Assembly: GCF_044647545.1 (NCBI RefSeq) | Contig: NZ_CP172818.1 | Strand: one strand, 5' to 3' | Source: Escherichia coli | GTDB taxonomy: Bacteria; Pseudomonadota; Gammaproteobacteria; Enterobacterales; Enterobacteriaceae | DNA length: 64,000 bases | Shown: in pieces, positions 16,531 to 64,000 of the stretch | How the letters are laid out: each line of letters opens with the position of its first letter | Position numbering within the stretch: the stretch's first letter is position 1 | Translations under genes and position numbers: made by a program | Notes under the pieces: generated by a model | Database searches by the model: none | Told to the model about the DNA's origin: nothing | Seen by the model: only the letters and a program-made list of their open reading frames with translations

Positions 16531-17853
16531 ATGCAAGCAACAGCCACAACACTCGACCACGAGCAAGAATACACGCCGATCAACTCGCGTAATAAAGTCC
16601 TTGTCGCCTCTCTCATTGGCACGGCCATTGAGTTCTTCGACTTTTACATTTACGCCACTGCGGCCGTTATTGTGTTTCCGCATATCTTCTTCCCGCAGGG
16701 CGATCCAACGGCAGCAACGCTACAGTCGCTCGCCACCTTCGCCATCGCCTTCGTCGCGCGCCCCATTGGCTCTGCCGTTTTTGGTCATTTTGGCGATCGC
16801 GTTGGGCGTAAAGCGACGCTGGTCGCCTCGTTGCTAACGATGGGGATTTCGACCGTGGTGATTGGTCTGCTGCCGGGCTATGCCACGATTGGTATTTTCG
16901 CCCCGCTGCTGCTGGCACTGGCTCGATTTGGTCAGGGTCTGGGCTTAGGCGGCGAATGGGGCGGAGCGGCGCTGCTGGCGACTGAAAACGCCCCACCGCG
17001 CAAACGTGCACTGTATGGCTCCTTCCCGCAACTGGGCGCACCGATTGGCTTCTTCTTTGCCAATGGCACTTTCTTGCTGCTTTCCTGGCTACTGACCGAC
17101 GAGCAGTTTATGAGCTGGGGCTGGCGTGTGCCATTTATCTTCTCGGCGGTGCTGGTCATTATCGGTCTGTATGTTCGCGTGTCGCTGCATGAGTCGCCGG
17201 TGTTTGAGAAAGTCGCTAAAGCGAAAAAACAGGTGAAGATCCCGCTGGGTACGCTGCTGACCAAACATGTTCGCGTAACCGTACTGGGTACGTTCATTAT
17301 GCTGGCAACCTATACGCTGTTTTACATCATGACGGTCTACTCTATGACCTTTAGTACCGCCGCCGCGCCAGTTGGGCTTGGCCTGCCGCGTAACGAAGTG
17401 TTGTGGATGCTGATGATGGCAGTGATTGGTTTTGGCGTGATGGTGCCAGTCGCCGGATTACTGGCTGATGCCTTTGGTCGCCGTAAAAGCATGGTAATCA
17501 TCACCACGCTGATCATCCTGTTCGCGCTGTTCGCCTTTAACCCGTTGCTCGGTTCTGGCAACCCGATTCTGGTTTTTGCCTTCCTGCTGCTGGGGTTAAG
17601 TCTGATGGGGCTGACCTTCGGTCCGATGGGCGCGCTGTTACCAGAGCTGTTCCCGACAGAAGTGCGTTACACCGGAGCATCGTTCTCTTACAACGTAGCG
17701 TCGATTCTCGGGGCTTCCGTTGCGCCGTATATCGCAGCCTGGTTGCAGACTAACTACGGGTTAGGTGCGGTGGGGTTATATCTGGCGGCGATGGCTGGCT
17801 TGACGTTAATCGCCCTGCTGCTGACCCATGAGACGCGACATCAGTCGTTGTAA
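16531..17853 (+). CDS. yhjE: MFS transporter YhjE (metabolite:H+ symporter family), 440 aa
   Basis: 12-TM MFS protein with the GRKATLVASLL motif region; 440 aa. Confidence 0.9.
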   Translation: MQATATTLDHEQEYTPINSRNKVLVASLIGTAIEFFDFYIYATAAVIVFPHIFFPQGDPTAATLQSLATFAIAFVARPIGSAVFGHFGDRVGRKATLVASLLTMGISTVVIGLLPGYATIGIFAPLLLALARFGQGLGLGGEWGGAALLATENAPPRKRALYGSFPQLGAPIGFFFANGTFLLLSWLLTDEQFMSWGWRVPFIFSAVLVIIGLYVRVSLHESPVFEKVAKAKKQVKIPLGTLLTKHVRVTVLGTFIMLATYTLFYIMTVYSMTFSTAAAPVGLGLPRNEVLWMLMMAVIGFGVMVPVAGLLADAFGRRKSMVIITTLIILFALFAFNPLLGSGNPILVFAFLLLGLSLMGLTFGPMGALLPELFPTEVRYTGASFSYNVASILGASVAPYIAAWLQTNYGLGAVGLYLAAMAGLTLIALLLTHETRHQSL

Positions 17854-61230: not shown

Positions 61231-61663
61231 TTTCTTACTCCTTTCACCCAAAAAAAGCGCACAACGACACACGCGTGTCTGACGTGACAAGGATAGTCCA
61301 GGACAGGCTTGCAGGATACCCTTTCTACGTAATCTTCCTGGTAAAATCATGGAGAAAATGAAACAAGGTTAATTTGTTGTTTCATTGTTAAAAAATGATA
61401 GTGCCGTTGCTTTTTTTGTAGCCAGAGATTTACGCCTTCTCAGAACGTTAGATTTTCGAAATCTTTACAAACCGGGAGTGGTAAGAGATATATCGGCATT
61501 TATCAGATCGTTAGGTGGCTATAAGTCACGCTAAATGACTGGCTGAATCGAATCATAGCCAGAGCATGCCCTGACTACACCCCGCTGTGTCTGTTTTTCC
61601 CGACTATTCTTAATGAGCTTCGATGCAATTCACGATCCCGCAGTGTGATTTGAGGAGTTTTCA

Positions 61664-61954
61664 ATGGAATATAAAGATCCAATGCATGAGCTGTTGAGCA
61701 GCCTGGAACAGATTGTTTTTAAAGATGAAACGCAGAAAATTACCCTGACGCACAGAACAACGTCCTGTACCGAAATTGAGCAGTTACGAAAAGGGACAGG
61801 GTTAAAAATCGATGATTTCGCCCGGGTTTTGGGCGTATCAGTCGCCATGGTAAAGGAATGGGAATCCAGACGCGTGAAGCCTTCAAGTGCCGAACTAAAA
61901 TTGATGCGTTTGATTCAAGCCAACCCGGCATTAAGTAAGCAGTTGATGGAATAG
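61664..61954 (+). CDS. yiaG: HTH (XRE/Cro-type) transcriptional regulator YiaG (96 aa)
   Basis: 96-aa ORF with an HTH motif around GLKIDDFARVLGVSVAMVKEWESRR. Confidence 0.88.
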   Translation: MEYKDPMHELLSSLEQIVFKDETQKITLTHRTTSCTEIEQLRKGTGLKIDDFARVLGVSVAMVKEWESRRVKPSSAELKLMRLIQANPALSKQLME

Positions 61955-61980
61955 ACTTTTATCCACTTTATTGCTGTTTA

Positions 61981-62006
61981 CGGTCCTGATGACAGGACCG
62001 TTTTCC
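61981..62006 (+). terminator. yiaG rho-independent terminator
   Basis: cggtcctgatgacaggaccg followed by ttttcc. Confidence 0.65.
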
Positions 62007-62038
62007 AACCGATTAATCATAAATATGAAAAATAATTG

Positions 62039-62067
62039 TTGCATCACCCGCCAATGCGTGGCTTAAT
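62039..62067 (+). promoter_or_regulatory. cspA promoter (-35 TTGCAT, 17-bp spacer, -10 CTTAAT) with AT-rich upstream element
   Basis: ttgcat at 62039-62044 and cttaat at 62062-62067, with the AT-rich tract aatcataaatatgaaaaataattg upstream. Confidence 0.7.
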
Positions 62068-62075
62068 GCACATCA

Positions 62076-62234
62076 ACGGTTTGACGTACAGACCATTAAA
62101 GCAGTGTAGTAAGGCAAGTCCCTTCAAGAGTTATCGTTGATACCCCTCGTAGTGCACATTCCTTTAACGCTTCAAAATCTGTAAAGCACGCCATATCGCC
62201 GAAAGGCACACTTAATTATTAAAGGTAATACACT
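62076..62234 (+). promoter_or_regulatory. cspA 159-nt 5' UTR (cold-box and thermosensor leader)
   Basis: Leader beginning acggtttgacgtacagacc..., which matches the cspA mRNA 5' UTR as I recall it; ends at the cspA ATG. Confidence 0.7.
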
Positions 62235-62447
62235 ATGTCTGGTAAAATGACTGGTATCGTAAAATGGTTCAACGCTGACAAAGGCTTCGGCTTCATCACT
62301 CCTGACGATGGCTCTAAAGACGTGTTCGTACACTTCTCTGCTATCCAGAACGATGGTTACAAATCTCTGGACGAAGGTCAGAAAGTGTCCTTCACCATCG
62401 AAAGCGGCGCTAAAGGCCCGGCAGCTGGTAACGTAACCAGCCTGTAA
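62235..62447 (+). CDS. cspA: Major cold-shock protein CspA (70 aa)
   Basis: Exact CspA sequence [70 protein letters not shown]. Confidence 0.97.
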
Positions 62448-62474
62448 TCTCTGCTTAAAAGCACAGAATCTAAG

Positions 62475-62502
62475 ATCCCTGCCAAATGGCGGGGATTTTT
62501 TT
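62475..62502 (+). terminator. cspA rho-independent terminator
   Basis: atccctgcc-aaat-ggcggggat followed by tttttttatttg. Confidence 0.7.
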
Positions 62503-62635
62503 ATTTGTTTATTCAGGAAATAAATAATCGTTCGCGTAATAAAATCTATTATTATTTTTGTGAAGAATAAATTTGGGTGCAATGAGAATGCGCAACGCCG
62601 TAAGAAAGGCGGGAATAACTTCCCGCCGAAGACGC

Positions 62636-62788
62636 TTACTCTTTCAATTTGCAGGCTAAAAACGCCGCCAGCTCATAATTCTCCTGTTTAATATGCAATT
62701 CACACAGTGAATCTCTTATCATCCAGGTGAAAAATAAAAGCGTGAAACAAATCACTATTAAAGAAAGTAATCTATATTTCTGCGGCAT
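62636..62788 (-). CDS. hokA: HokA, Hok/Gef-family type I toxin peptide (50 aa)
   Basis: MPQKYRLLSLIVICFTLLFFTWMIRDSLCELHIKQENYELAAFLACKLKE from the ATG at 62786-62788. The IS150 end lies 32 bp upstream of this start codon. Confidence 0.85.
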   Translation of the reverse strand: MPQKYRLLSLIVICFTLLFFTWMIRDSLCELHIKQENYELAAFLACKLKE

Positions 62789-62867
62789 TCCCAGCCTCCT
62801 GTGTTGATTTCCACCGAGTATGTACTGCACCCATTTTGTTGGACGATGAAATGGAATAGCCCCTGAT

Positions 62868-63389
62868 ATGTCAAAGCCAAAATACCCTTTTGAAAAGCGC
62901 CTTGAAGTCGTGAATCACTACTTCACTACTGATGATGGTTACAGGATCATCTCGGCACGTTTTGGTGTCCCCCGAACCCAGGTCAGGACATGGGTTGCCC
63001 TCTATGAAAAACATGGAGAAAAAGGTTTAATTCCCAAACCTAAAGGTGTTAGTGCTGATCCAGAGTTGCGTATTAAGGTCGTGAAAGCTGTGATCGAGCA
63101 GCACATGTCCCTTAATCAGGCTGCTGCTCACTTTATGCTTGCTGGTAGTGGTTCTGTAGCCAGGTGGCTGAAGGTTTATGAAGAGCGCGGAGAAGCTGGT
63201 TTACGCGCGCTCAAGATTGGCACCAAAAGAAACATTGCAATATCAGTTGATCCAGAAAAAGCGGCATCAGCATTGGAGCTGTCAAAAGACCGACGTATTG
63301 AGGATCTTGAAAGGCAAGTTCGATTTCTTGAAACGCGGCTTATGTATCTAAAAAAGCTGAAAGCCTTAGCTCATCCCACGAAAAAGTGA
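62868..63389 (+). CDS. insJ: IS150 OrfA / InsJ, HTH DNA-binding transposase subunit (173 aa)
   Basis: 173-aa ORF MSKPKYPFEKRLEVVNHYF... with IS3-family OrfA HTH and leucine-zipper region. Confidence 0.92.
   Translation: MSKPKYPFEKRLEVVNHYFTTDDGYRIISARFGVPRTQVRTWVALYEKHGEKGLIPKPKGVSADPELRIKVVKAVIEQHMSLNQAAAHFMLAGSGSVARWLKVYEERGEAGLRALKIGTKRNIAISVDPEKAASALELSKDRRIEDLERQVRFLETRLMYLKKLKALAHPTKK
63350..63356 (+). other. Programmed -1 ribosomal frameshift slippery heptamer A_AAA_AAG of IS150
   Basis: ctaAAAAAAGctg near the end of orfA; the -1 frame is open from upstream of this site and continues into the DDE transposase. Confidence 0.75.
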
Positions 63390-64000
63390 AAGTACTCAAC
63401 GAGCTAAGGCAGTTTTATCCTCTTGATGAGCTTCTCAGGGCTGCGGAGATACCGCGCAGTACGTTTTATTACCATCTAAAGGCTCTCAGCAAGCCTGACA
63501 AGTATGCGGACGTTAAAAAGCGTATTGGTGAGATTTATCACGAGAATAGAGGCCGATACGGATACCGTAGGGTAACGCTGTCTCTTCATCGAGAAGGGAA
63601 ACAGATTAACCATAAAGCTGTTCAGCGCCTGATGGGAACCCTCTCACTTAAAGCAGCGATTAAGGTCAAGCGATACCGCTCTTACAGAGGAGAGGTAGGG
63701 CAAACCGCCCCTAATGTTCTCCAAAGAGATTTCAAGGCTACGCGGCCAAACGAGAAGTGGGTTACCGATGTTACTGAATTTGCAGTCAATGGGCGCAAGC
63801 TGTATTTGTCTCCAGTAATAGATCTCTTCAACAACGAAGTTATTTCTTACAGCCTTTCGGAAAGACCAGTGATGAACATGGTTGAGAATATGCTCGATCA
63901 GGCATTCAAAAAGCTTAATCCTCACGAGCATCCTGTTCTGCACTCTGACCAGGGATGGCAGTATCGTATGAGAAAATATCAAAATATTCTTAAAGAACAT
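63386..64000 (+). CDS. insK: IS150 OrfB / InsK, DDE transposase catalytic domain (partial, continues beyond window)
   Basis: Manual translation in the -1 frame gives [33 protein letters not shown]...KWVTDVTEF...HSDQGWQY with no stop before the window end; absent from the ORF track because the stop lies outside. Confidence 0.85.

What the first reader, a model, noticed from the sequence alone, without database searches (positions are those of the whole stretch)
62636..62868. hokA toxin gene separated from its upstream control region by the IS150 end
The hokA ATG is at 62786-62788 on the minus strand and the IS150 terminal repeat begins at 62821, leaving only 32 bp of native sequence upstream of the toxin start codon. 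In hok/sok loci the promoter, the overlapping mok frame and the sok antisense gene all lie upstream of hok, so here they are displaced or replaced by IS150. As I recall, chromosomal hok loci in K-12 are described as inactivated by nearby insertion elements rather than by mutations in the toxin frame. The intact toxin ORF could in principle be transcribed from an IS150 outward promoter.
Basis: partly seen in the sequence, partly recalled or inferred. Interest (0 to 1): 0.35.

Follow-up and report, generated by a model that had tools for sequence, protein, structure and literature searches.

The report
IS150-truncated hokA toxin locus

Summary
hokA (50 aa, Hok/Gef family) lies at 62636-62788 (-). 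The IS150 left end starts at 62821. Only 32 nt of native leader lie between them.

IS-free E. coli loci have a 149-nt hokA leader that matches Rfam RF01794. It holds the mRNA 5' end, sokA and the mokA start codon. The window keeps only its last 32 nt: the hokA ribosome-binding site and an orphan sokA -35 box.

MG1655 has the identical junction, annotated hokA / mokA pseudogene / IS150 / sokA pseudogene, and papers citing Pedersen & Gerdes 1999 describe it. The junction occurs in 1652 of 5426 complete E. coli genomes.

The outward-promoter idea is not supported. The documented IS150 outward promoter is at the other end of the element. Only a weak candidate faces hokA, and folding predicts a sequestered start site.

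Additional results:
- Relatives lack a 38-bp hairpin and a target duplication, so this is not a simple insertion.
- In an unbiased metagenome sample, 23 of 34 distinct IS150 right-end flanks carry GRGGC 4-6 nt from the end.
- Half of those flanks are hok-family leaders.

Verdict: real, correctly read, already known, low interest.

The parts
62636..62788 (-). hokA toxin ORF. It is intact at 50 aa and has Cys14, Cys29 and Cys46.
   Evidence: ORF and translation. Pfam HOK_GEF at E 7.5e-22. Annotated hokA in every relative listed.
62789..62820 (-). Last 32 nt of the native hokA leader. This is the tail of the mokA frame and includes the hokA Shine-Dalgarno AGGAGG at 62800-62795.
   Evidence: Aligns to L003 3001-3032, the 3' end of the Rfam RF01794 match. 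MG1655 annotates this stretch as part of the mokA pseudogene b4647.
62804..62809 (+). Orphan -35 box (TTGATT) of the lost sokA promoter. Its -10 partner TAACCT is replaced by the IS150 end.
   Evidence: In IS-free L003, TTGATT-17-TAACCT is the best antisense promoter candidate and sits just upstream of the sokA start inferred from sokC. In the window TTGATT is followed by TCCACCGAGTA and then the IS150 repeat.
62821..64000 (+). First 1180 of 1443 bp of IS150, cut off by the window end. The left inverted repeat starts at 62821.
   Evidence: There are 9 mismatches to the MG1655 copy. The sequence is a mosaic of two circulating IS150 variants plus 3 unique changes.
62868..63389 (+). insJ (IS150 orfA), intact at 173 aa. 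The frameshift heptamer A AAA AAG is at 63350.
   Evidence: (helix-turn-helix domains).
63386..64000 (+). insK (IS150 orfB). It is open to the window end.
   Evidence: Translation compared with MG1655.
62575..62587 (-). fbi-like 3' element of the hokA mRNA (TCTCATTGCACCC). Its natural partner, the mRNA 5' end GGGUGCUUGAGA, is no longer attached.
   Evidence: In the fold of the IS-free mRNA, the 5' GGGUGC pairs with the 3' GCACCC (-130.9 kcal/mol, z -6.1). Coordinates.
62651..62672 (-). Coding-region segment predicted to pair with the hokA Shine-Dalgarno and AUG.
   Evidence: A 16-bp long-range helix appears in both the IS-free mRNA fold and a hypothetical IS-derived transcript.
62608..62627 (-). 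G+C-rich hairpin followed by TTTCTT, just after the hokA stop codon.
   Evidence: Terminator-like site.
62846..62874 (-). Only candidate promoter facing hokA inside IS150: TTGACA-17-TTTCAT. It is weak and unverified.
   Evidence: Weight-matrix score 11.9, against a shuffle-maximum median of 9.7 and 95th percentile of 12.7. It is missed by the consensus scan because the -10 lacks A at position 2.

Best explanation
This is the IS150-disrupted allele of the chromosomal hokA/mokA/sokA type I toxin-antitoxin locus, the same allele MG1655 carries.

Shown:
- The toxin ORF is whole.
- Of the 149-nt leader, only the last 32 nt remain attached to it.
- The mokA start codon and ribosome-binding site, the sokA transcribed 5' end and the sokA -10 box are not next to hokA.
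- In relatives with the same junction, a 38-bp hairpin holding those parts is deleted, and the hokA promoter sits 1.4 kb away beyond IS150.

Inferred:
- hokA is transcriptionally orphaned and translationally closed. hok translation normally depends on mok translation, and the retained ribosome-binding site and AUG are predicted to pair with codons about 39-46. The toxin is therefore silent, and losing the SokA antidote does no harm.
- The IS150 joint next to hokA is a primary transposase-made joint at a preferred IS150 target. The motif GRGGC lies a few bases outside the IS right end, and the bottom strand of the hairpin's 3' arm supplies it as [GTA]AGAGGC.
- The hairpin was lost either in the same event, as an 'IS150-del' insertion without target duplication, or by a later deletion from the right end of the IS.
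For: Identity and anatomy:
- Sequence and ORFs and the Pfam match.
- Rfam RF01794 hits IS-free L003 2884-3035 at 119.6 bits and finds nothing in the window.
- In L003 the mokA ATG is at 2973 and sokA spans about 2927-2982. Both were mapped by homology to the annotated mokC/sokC and to the MG1655 sokA remnant.
- MG1655 annotates hokA, the mokA pseudogene, IS150 and the sokA pseudogene with identical spacing.
- PMC2654758, PMC11551753 and PMC3562002 describe the K-12 inactivation and the intact E. coli C locus.

Not a simple insertion:
- Relatives read AAAGTG|IRR..IRL|TACTCG. They have no target duplication and lack 38 bp.

Silencing:
- No consensus promoter is found on either strand of 62450-63400.
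- The documented IS150 outward promoter is at the 3' end of the element.
- The ribosome-binding site and AUG are sequestered in both folds.

Primary joint at a preferred target:
- Plasmid locus L023 has IS150 at the homologous position of an R1-type hok leader. It has a clean TAC duplication and keeps the hairpin.
- 23 of 34 distinct IS150 right-end flanks from metagenomes have GRGGC starting at flank position 5-7. The shuffle mean is 0.17 and the maximum is 3.
- IS150 insertions that delete DNA and leave no duplication are documented in the long-term evolution experiment (PMC11708052).
Against: - There are no expression data for this strain, so silence is inferred from anatomy and predicted folds.
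- A perfect -35 (TTGACA) with a 17-nt spacer faces hokA inside the IS left end. It could give low-level transcription.
- An in-frame GTG at 62830 inside the repeat extends the HokA frame to 64 aa.
- The toxin ORF is still intact in this allele across about 30% of complete genomes. That could mean retention for a reason rather than recent silencing.
- The far side of IS150 lies outside the window, so which far-side variant this strain carries is unknown. Its closest relatives show two variants.
- One allele (L012) has IS150 in the opposite orientation relative to the motif, so the orientation rule is not absolute.
Confidence: 0.85

Rival explanations
1. hokA is still expressed. Transcription would start at a promoter inside the IS150 left end (TTGACA-17-TTTCAT, start near 62839) or read through the element. 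The cell would then make some unregulated toxin, possibly with a physiological role.
For: The candidate is the best-scoring promoter-like site on that strand of the whole element. The retained ribosome-binding site is a strong AGGAGG. The ORF is intact in all relatives seen. IS150 insertions can switch on neighbouring DNA (PMC11101190).
Against: - The -10 lacks the critical A at position 2, and the score is within the range of shuffled sequence.
- The consensus scan finds nothing.
- The published outward promoter is at the opposite end of IS150 and gives only modest transcription.
- The ribosome-binding site and AUG are predicted to be paired.
- The mokA start needed for coupled translation is gone.
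- Unrepressed HokA is toxic, yet this allele is carried by 1652 of 5426 genomes.
Confidence: 0.1
2. The joint next to hokA is secondary. IS150 first landed at the 5' base of the hairpin, 71-74 nt upstream of the ATG. The 38-bp hairpin was then deleted from the left-end side, bringing the IS to 32 nt from hokA.
For: Allele L012 has IS150 in the same orientation at the 5' base, with a 3-bp AAG duplication and the hairpin intact. The far joint of the window-type allele lies within 2 nt of that site. The 5' base is by far the commoner insertion point in hokA, hokE, hokC and plasmid hok loci.
Against: - The far joints differ: AAAG| in L012 against AAAGTG| in window-type relatives.
- Plasmid L023 shows that the 3' base of the hairpin is itself a genuine target. 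It has a TAC duplication identical to the window's flank.
- The motif rule (GRGGC next to the IS right end) fits a primary insertion at the 3' base and does not fit L012.
- The rarer variant with a further 59-bp loss also changes only the right-end side.
Confidence: 0.2
3. The junction is an assembly or chimeric artefact of a repeated element at the window edge.
For: IS150 is multi-copy, the window ends inside it, and the window is only 99.2% identical to its best complete-genome match over 12 kb.
Against: The identical joint is present in 1652 independently assembled complete genomes, including MG1655, BL21 and SMS-3-5.
Confidence: 0.01

Closest known systems
E. coli K-12 MG1655 hokA (b4455) / mokA pseudogene (b4647) / IS150 / sokA pseudogene (b4614), described by Pedersen & Gerdes 1999
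   Same: The joint is identical: IS150 left end, 32 nt, then the hokA ATG. IS orientation, neighbours (cspA, ysaE, glyS side) and the intact 50-aa toxin are the same.
   Different: - The window is not K-12. The hokA-cspA stretch is 97.3% identical.
- HokA differs by S37N.
- The leader remnant has a private T-to-G change at 62814.
- The IS150 copy is a different, mosaic variant.
- The far joint and sokA remnant are outside the window.
Intact hokA/mokA/sokA loci (E. coli C in the literature; O157:H7 TT12A and strain 317 here)
   Same: The toxin gene, 3' fbi element, genomic position between glyS and cspA, and the last 32 nt of leader are the same.
   Different: These loci have the full 149-nt leader matching Rfam RF01794. 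That includes the promoter, the 5' GGGUGC element, sokA, the mokA ribosome-binding site and ATG, and the 38-bp hairpin. 2801 of 5426 genomes are of this kind.
Plasmid hok locus with IS150 at the 3' base of the mok hairpin (L023, NZ_JBUXMH010000002.1)
   Same: IS150 is in the same orientation, with its left end joined to TAC about 30 nt upstream of the hok ATG. This is the homologous nucleotide position.
   Different: It has a clean 3-bp TAC duplication, and the hairpin and whole upstream leader are retained on the far side. It is an R1-type plasmid paralogue rather than hokA. Only this one example was found.
sokE::IS150 and other IS150 insertions at the 5' base of the hairpin (hokA alleles L002/L011, plasmids L013/L014, laboratory hokC insertions)
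   Same: IS150 splits the hok leader and the sok gene next to a GRGGC motif, so toxin control and antidote are inactivated in one step (PMC11551753, PMC5419217).
   Different: The insertion point is about 40 nt further from the toxin gene. Most are in the opposite orientation. The mok start and hairpin stay attached to hok, and a 3-bp duplication is present.
hokC (gef) and hokE of K-12 with IS186
   Same: These are chromosomal hok loci with an intact toxin frame and a nearby insertion element blamed for inactivation.
   Different: IS186 lies downstream of the toxin gene and disrupts the 3' fbi end. mokC and sokC remain annotated as intact.

Membership tests
[quoted passage not shown] | Hok/Gef-family toxin ORF of about 50 aa | tested here: met
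   PF01848 at E 7.5e-22 and 77 bits, against a cut-off of 22.
[quoted passage not shown] | Structured hok mRNA 5' leader (Rfam RF01794) with its own promoter | tested here: not met
   There is no RF01794 hit in window 61500-64000 at E up to 1. The same model scores 119.6 bits on IS-free L003. Only the last 32 of 149 nt are present.
[quoted passage not shown] | mok reading frame with its own ribosome-binding site and start codon upstream of hok | tested here: not met
   The mokA ATG (L003 2973) lies in the 38 bp that are absent. Only the last 32 nt (about 10 codons) of the mokA-specific extension remain. MG1655 annotates mokA as a pseudogene.
[quoted passage not shown] | cis-encoded antisense sok RNA gene overlapping the mok start | tested here: not met
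   Only the -35 box TTGATT remains at 62804-62809. The -10 box, start site and transcribed region are not in the window. In MG1655 the 35-nt 3' remnant lies beyond IS150.
[quoted passage not shown] | 3' fold-back (fbi) element complementary to the mRNA 5' end | tested here: met
   TCTCATTGCACCC is at 62587-62575. The homologous element pairs with the 5' GGGUGC in the IS-free mRNA fold.
[quoted passage not shown] | Toxin kills cells when expressed and is repressed by Sok | not testable with these tools
   From the literature only: HokA is toxic on overexpression (bioRxiv 10.1101/2025.08.07.668861), and SokA regulates hokA in E. coli C (PMC3562002).
IS150 (IS3 family) | Terminal inverted repeats beginning TGTACTG | tested here: met
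   The left repeat is at 62821. The right repeat lies beyond the window; it is present in all relatives, whose elements are 1443 bp.
IS150 (IS3 family) | Two overlapping ORFs (insJ, insK) joined by a -1 frameshift at A AAA AAG | tested here: met
   insJ is 173 aa and intact. The heptamer is at 63350. insK is open from 63386 to the window end.
IS150 (IS3 family) | 3-bp target-site duplication | not testable with these tools
   The far joint is outside the window. Relatives with the same near joint have no duplication. The homologous plasmid insertion has TAC.
IS150 insertion with concomitant deletion ('IS150-del', PMC11708052) | No target duplication, and more than 10 bp of target DNA missing between the two IS ends | tested here: met
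   This was tested in relatives, not in the window. They read AAAGTG|IS150|TACTCG with 38 bp absent. Whether it arose in one step cannot be told.

The most novel reading that the evidence does not exclude
IS150 is not hitting hok loci at random or only through selection. It has an oriented sequence target, GRGGC starting 4-6 nt outside its right end. Every hok-family leader carries this motif at the mok ribosome-binding-site hairpin, once on each strand at the two bases of the stem. hok/sok loci would therefore be the main natural sink for IS150. Each hit disables toxin control and antidote together, which is why such insertions are tolerated. The window's joint is the bottom-strand version of this target. 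The hot spot is already reported at gene level. I did not find the nucleotide-level motif or the two-sided hairpin geometry in the papers I could search.
Probability: 0.45. Interest if true: 0.45.

Novelty: already known. Interest (0 to 1): 0.2.

Why it matters
For genome annotation, hokA here should not be scored as a working toxin-antitoxin system. mokA and sokA are absent from the hokA side, as MG1655's pseudogene annotations already say.

More broadly, about 48% of complete E. coli genomes do not show an uninterrupted hokA leader, and in every such locus I inspected an IS150 was the cause. 1652 have the window-type joint. About 950 more are inferred by subtraction (5401 - 2801 - 1652) and from sampled loci.

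In a small unbiased sample, half of the distinct IS150 insertion sites were hok-family leaders. If the target motif holds up, it would explain the repeated 'parallel' IS150 hits at hok/sok loci in evolution experiments as mutational bias rather than adaptation. That affects how those parallel mutations are interpreted.

Tried and rejected
- **Rfam on the window.** At a permissive threshold it found only the cspA thermoregulator and chance hits, with no hok/sok RNA.
- **Promoter scans.** The built-in consensus scan found no promoter on either strand. It also missed the native hokA promoter in an IS-free locus, so I wrote a weight-matrix scan. That scan did not clearly pick out the published 3' outward promoter either, so its negatives are weak evidence.
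- **Search for a chromosomal progenitor.** I built a synthetic junction for IS150 at the 3' base with the hairpin intact. It gave many 66%-coverage hits. On inspection these were 5'-base insertions read on the other strand through the hairpin's symmetry, so I rejected them. Only plasmid L023 was a true example.
- **PLSDB search for more 3'-base joints.** It found none. The two high-coverage hits carry about 45 extra bp.
- **Published REL4536 coordinates.** The coordinates for the mokB and hokE IS150 insertions fall inside chaB and cusA in REL606, so they could not be mapped. Only the hokC coordinates were used, assuming the reported position is the first duplicated base.
- **Genome-collection scan.** It was not usable for E. 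coli target preference, so I repeated the scan with 43 nt on metagenomes.
- **Papers not held.** Woods 2006, Schneider 2000 and Schwartz 1988 could not be read. Pedersen & Gerdes 1999 is cited only through other papers.
- **Far-side joint of this strain.** It cannot be determined. The window ends inside IS150, and the nearest relatives carry two different far joints.

Full report
**Observation**

On the minus strand the sequence is ...GGGTGCAGTACA|TACTCGGTGGAAATCAACACAGGAGGCTGGGA|ATG.
- The ATG at 62788-62786 opens a 50-aa ORF ending at 62636. It matches the Hok/Gef family at E 7.5e-22 and differs from K-12 HokA by one residue.
- TGTACTGCACCC at 62821 is the left inverted repeat of IS150. insJ (173 aa, helix-turn-helix domains) follows at 62868-63389, and insK is open to the window end.
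- Thirty-two nucleotides separate the two features.

**What an intact locus looks like**

Almost every complete E. coli genome (5422 of 5426) has this hokA-cspA segment. In IS-free loci such as O157:H7 TT12A (L003) and strain 317 (L004), 322 bp lie between glyS and hokA.
- The Rfam hok/sok leader model RF01794 matches L003 2884-3035 on the hokA strand at 119.6 bits. The match starts at GGGUGCUUGAG and ends at the hokA ATG.
- I mapped sokA by homology to the annotated mokC/sokC of MG1655 and to the annotated MG1655 sokA remnant. It spans about 2927-2982 on the opposite strand.
- mokA begins at an ATG at 2973, in frame with hokA and adding 20 codons.
- The best antisense promoter candidate is TTGATT-17-TAACCT, just upstream of the inferred sokA start.
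- The IS-free mRNA folds far better than shuffles (z -6.1). Its 5' GGGUGC pairs with a 3' GCACCC, and the hokA ribosome-binding site and AUG pair with codons about 39-46. This is the canonical hok mRNA architecture.

**What is left in the window**

Only the equivalent of L003 3001-3032 remains. That is the tail of the mokA frame, the hokA ribosome-binding site (AGGAGG, 62800-62795) and, on the other strand, the sokA -35 box (62804-62809), now followed by the IS150 end instead of its -10. Rfam finds no hok/sok RNA in the window. The 3' fbi-like element (62587-62575) and the segment that pairs with the start region (62672-62651) are retained. MG1655 has identical spacing and is annotated hokA, mokA pseudogene, IS150, sokA pseudogene.

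**Not a simple insertion**

The window ends inside IS150, so I read the far side in relatives. The window itself is not K-12. Its best complete-genome match is 99.2% over 12 kb, and K-12 is 97.3% identical in the hokA-cspA stretch.
- In MG1655-type, GF131 and SMS-3-5 genomes the locus reads, in hokA sense, AAAGTG (AAAGTT in K-12)|right end..IS150..left end|TACTCG. There is no target duplication, and 38 bp are missing (L003 2963-3000, AGGCCCC...GCCTCT).
- Those 38 bp are the conserved hairpin that carries the mokA ribosome-binding site and ATG, the sokA 5' end and the sokA -10.
- A rarer variant (E7-1N7, SWHEFF_68) has lost a further 59 bp on the far side only.

**Counts among 5426 complete genomes**

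| Class | Genomes |
|---|---|
| Uninterrupted leader | 2801 |
| Window-type near joint | 1652 |
| ...of which K-12-type far joint | 1642 |
| Remainder (5401 with the hokA region minus the two classes above) | about 950 |

The remainder was not counted directly. The loci I inspected from that class have IS150 at the 5' base of the hairpin, in either orientation, with the hairpin retained.

**Why the IS is there**

IS150 sits at the homologous nucleotide position in other hok paralogues. In each case it is immediately 5' of the hairpin arm, with the duplicated bases shown in brackets:

| Locus | Target |
|---|---|
| hokE | [CCC]TGGGGC |
| hokE variant | [ACC]AGAGGC |
| R1-type plasmid hok | [CCA]CGAGGC |
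| another plasmid hok | [ACC]CGAGGC |
| REL606 hokC position 16,972 | [ACC]CGAGGC |

The hokC position was hit in three independent evolved lines (PMC5419217). The hokC mapping assumes that the reported coordinate is the first duplicated base.

The window's own joint has a homologue in plasmid L023. There IS150, in the same orientation, is joined to TAC about 30 nt before the hok ATG, with a clean TAC duplication and the hairpin kept. Read on the bottom strand this is [GTA]AGAGGC, the same motif supplied by the other arm of the hairpin.

Some of these examples were found with junction queries, which favours same-site hits. I therefore took an unbiased sample: every metagenome contig containing the last 43 nt of IS150.
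- It gave 58 flanks, of which 34 are distinct.
- 23 of the 34 have GRGGC starting at flank position 5-7. Shuffles give a mean of 0.17 and a maximum of 3, and other offsets give about 0.1 hits each.
- 17 of the 34 are hok-family leaders, and 7 are motif-bearing sites elsewhere.

So the joint next to hokA is most simply a primary transposase-made joint at a preferred target. The hairpin was lost either in the same event or later from the right-end side. IS150 insertions that delete DNA and leave no duplication are documented in the long-term evolution experiment (PMC11708052). The alternative history is insertion at the 5' base followed by deletion from the left-end side. It is less well supported because the far joints differ by 2 nt from allele L012.

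**Function**

I infer that hokA here is silent.
- Its promoter is 1.4 kb away or further.
- The mokA start on which hok translation normally depends is gone.
- The retained start region is predicted to be paired.
- The antidote gene is destroyed, yet the allele is carried by 30% of complete genomes with the ORF intact. That is hard to reconcile with appreciable expression of a toxin known to be lethal on overexpression.

The published IS150 outward promoter is at the 3' end (PMC11101190), which here points away from hokA, toward the sokA remnant. One candidate faces hokA: TTGACA-17-TTTCAT at 62874-62846. Its -10 lacks the key A, it does not exceed shuffled sequence, and the consensus scan rejects it. 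No expression data were available, so this step is inference.

**Comparison with what is known**

- PMC11551753 states that sokA of MG1655 is disrupted by IS150, and that sokE::IS150 occurs in more than 400 natural isolates.
- PMC3562002 describes the intact hokA/sokA of E. coli C.
- PMC5289635 calls trg/mokB an IS150 hot spot.
- bioRxiv 527788 lists hok/sok homologues near mobile-element hot spots.
- PMC10379815 notes that IS150 has an insertion preference.

The finding is therefore already known. The nucleotide-level motif and the two-sided use of the hairpin are the only parts I could not find stated.

**Verdict**

The allele is already known and of low interest. The side observation on IS150 targeting deserves a proper genome-wide count.

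Noticed in passing
Loci L144-L202 (metagenome contigs); also L013, L014, L019, L020, L023: IS150 right-end flanks show a strong oriented target motif. GRGGC starts 4-6 nt outside the element in 23 of 34 distinct sites, against a shuffle mean of 0.17. Half of the distinct sites are hok-family leaders. One is at the hok mRNA 5' stem ([CGC]TTGAGGC).
   Followed up: partly
window 62588-62659 (+): A 23-aa ORF (MRNAVRKAGITSRRRRLLFQFAG) lies antisense to the 3' end of hokA. It overlaps the fbi-like element by its first base (62587-62588). MG1655 annotates it as ysaE (b4793).
   Followed up: no
window 62821-64000: This IS150 copy is a mosaic of the two IS150 sequence variants seen in other genomes. 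It matches the K-12 type at 9 sites and the SMS-3-5 type at 6, interleaved, and has 3 private changes. This suggests recombination or gene conversion between IS150 copies.
   Followed up: partly
window 62826-62833 (IS150 left repeat) and 62575-62580: The IS150 left repeat contains GCACCC. Its complement GGGUGC equals the first six bases of the hok mRNA. In a hypothetical transcript reading out of the IS, this stretch is predicted to pair with the 3' fbi element, mimicking the natural 5'-3' closure. It may be coincidence.
   Followed up: partly
window 62828-62830 (-): An in-frame GTG inside the IS150 repeat extends the HokA frame to 64 aa (MQYILGGNQHRRLG + HokA), a pseudo-mok fusion. No ribosome-binding site is evident upstream.
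   Followed up: no
window 62814: A private T-to-G change in the 32-nt leader remnant (TACTCGGTGG against TACTCGTTGG in the nine related hokA loci compared). More generally, the window is only 99.2% identical over 12 kb to its best match among 5426 complete genomes, so the source lineage is not represented there.
   Followed up: partly
window 62075-62502 (+): A full-length match to the cspA thermoregulator RNA (Rfam RF01766, 500 bits), with the cspA terminator at 62472-62499, convergent with hokA.
   Followed up: no
Loci L024-L143 (genome collection): The last 24 nt of the IS150 right end occur exactly in many Streptococcus, Alistipes, Clostridia and other assemblies. Their outside flanks often show a T-run 8-12 nt from the end, which looks terminator-like. 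The Alistipes copies share the flank ACGGAGGTGGCTAA.
   Followed up: partly
L002, L011 (hokA alleles with IS150 at the 5' base, transposase in the hokA direction): These alleles have an apparent 5-bp duplication (AAGTG) instead of the usual 3 bp. They place the documented IS150 3' outward promoter facing an intact mokA-hokA with a split sokA. That would be a more interesting place than the window to look for unregulated toxin expression.
   Followed up: no
PMC5419217 Table 3 against REL606 (L016, L017): The published coordinates for the trg/mokB and hokE IS150 insertions fall inside chaB and cusA in REL606. Either those table rows are in a different coordinate system or they are swapped.
   Followed up: partly
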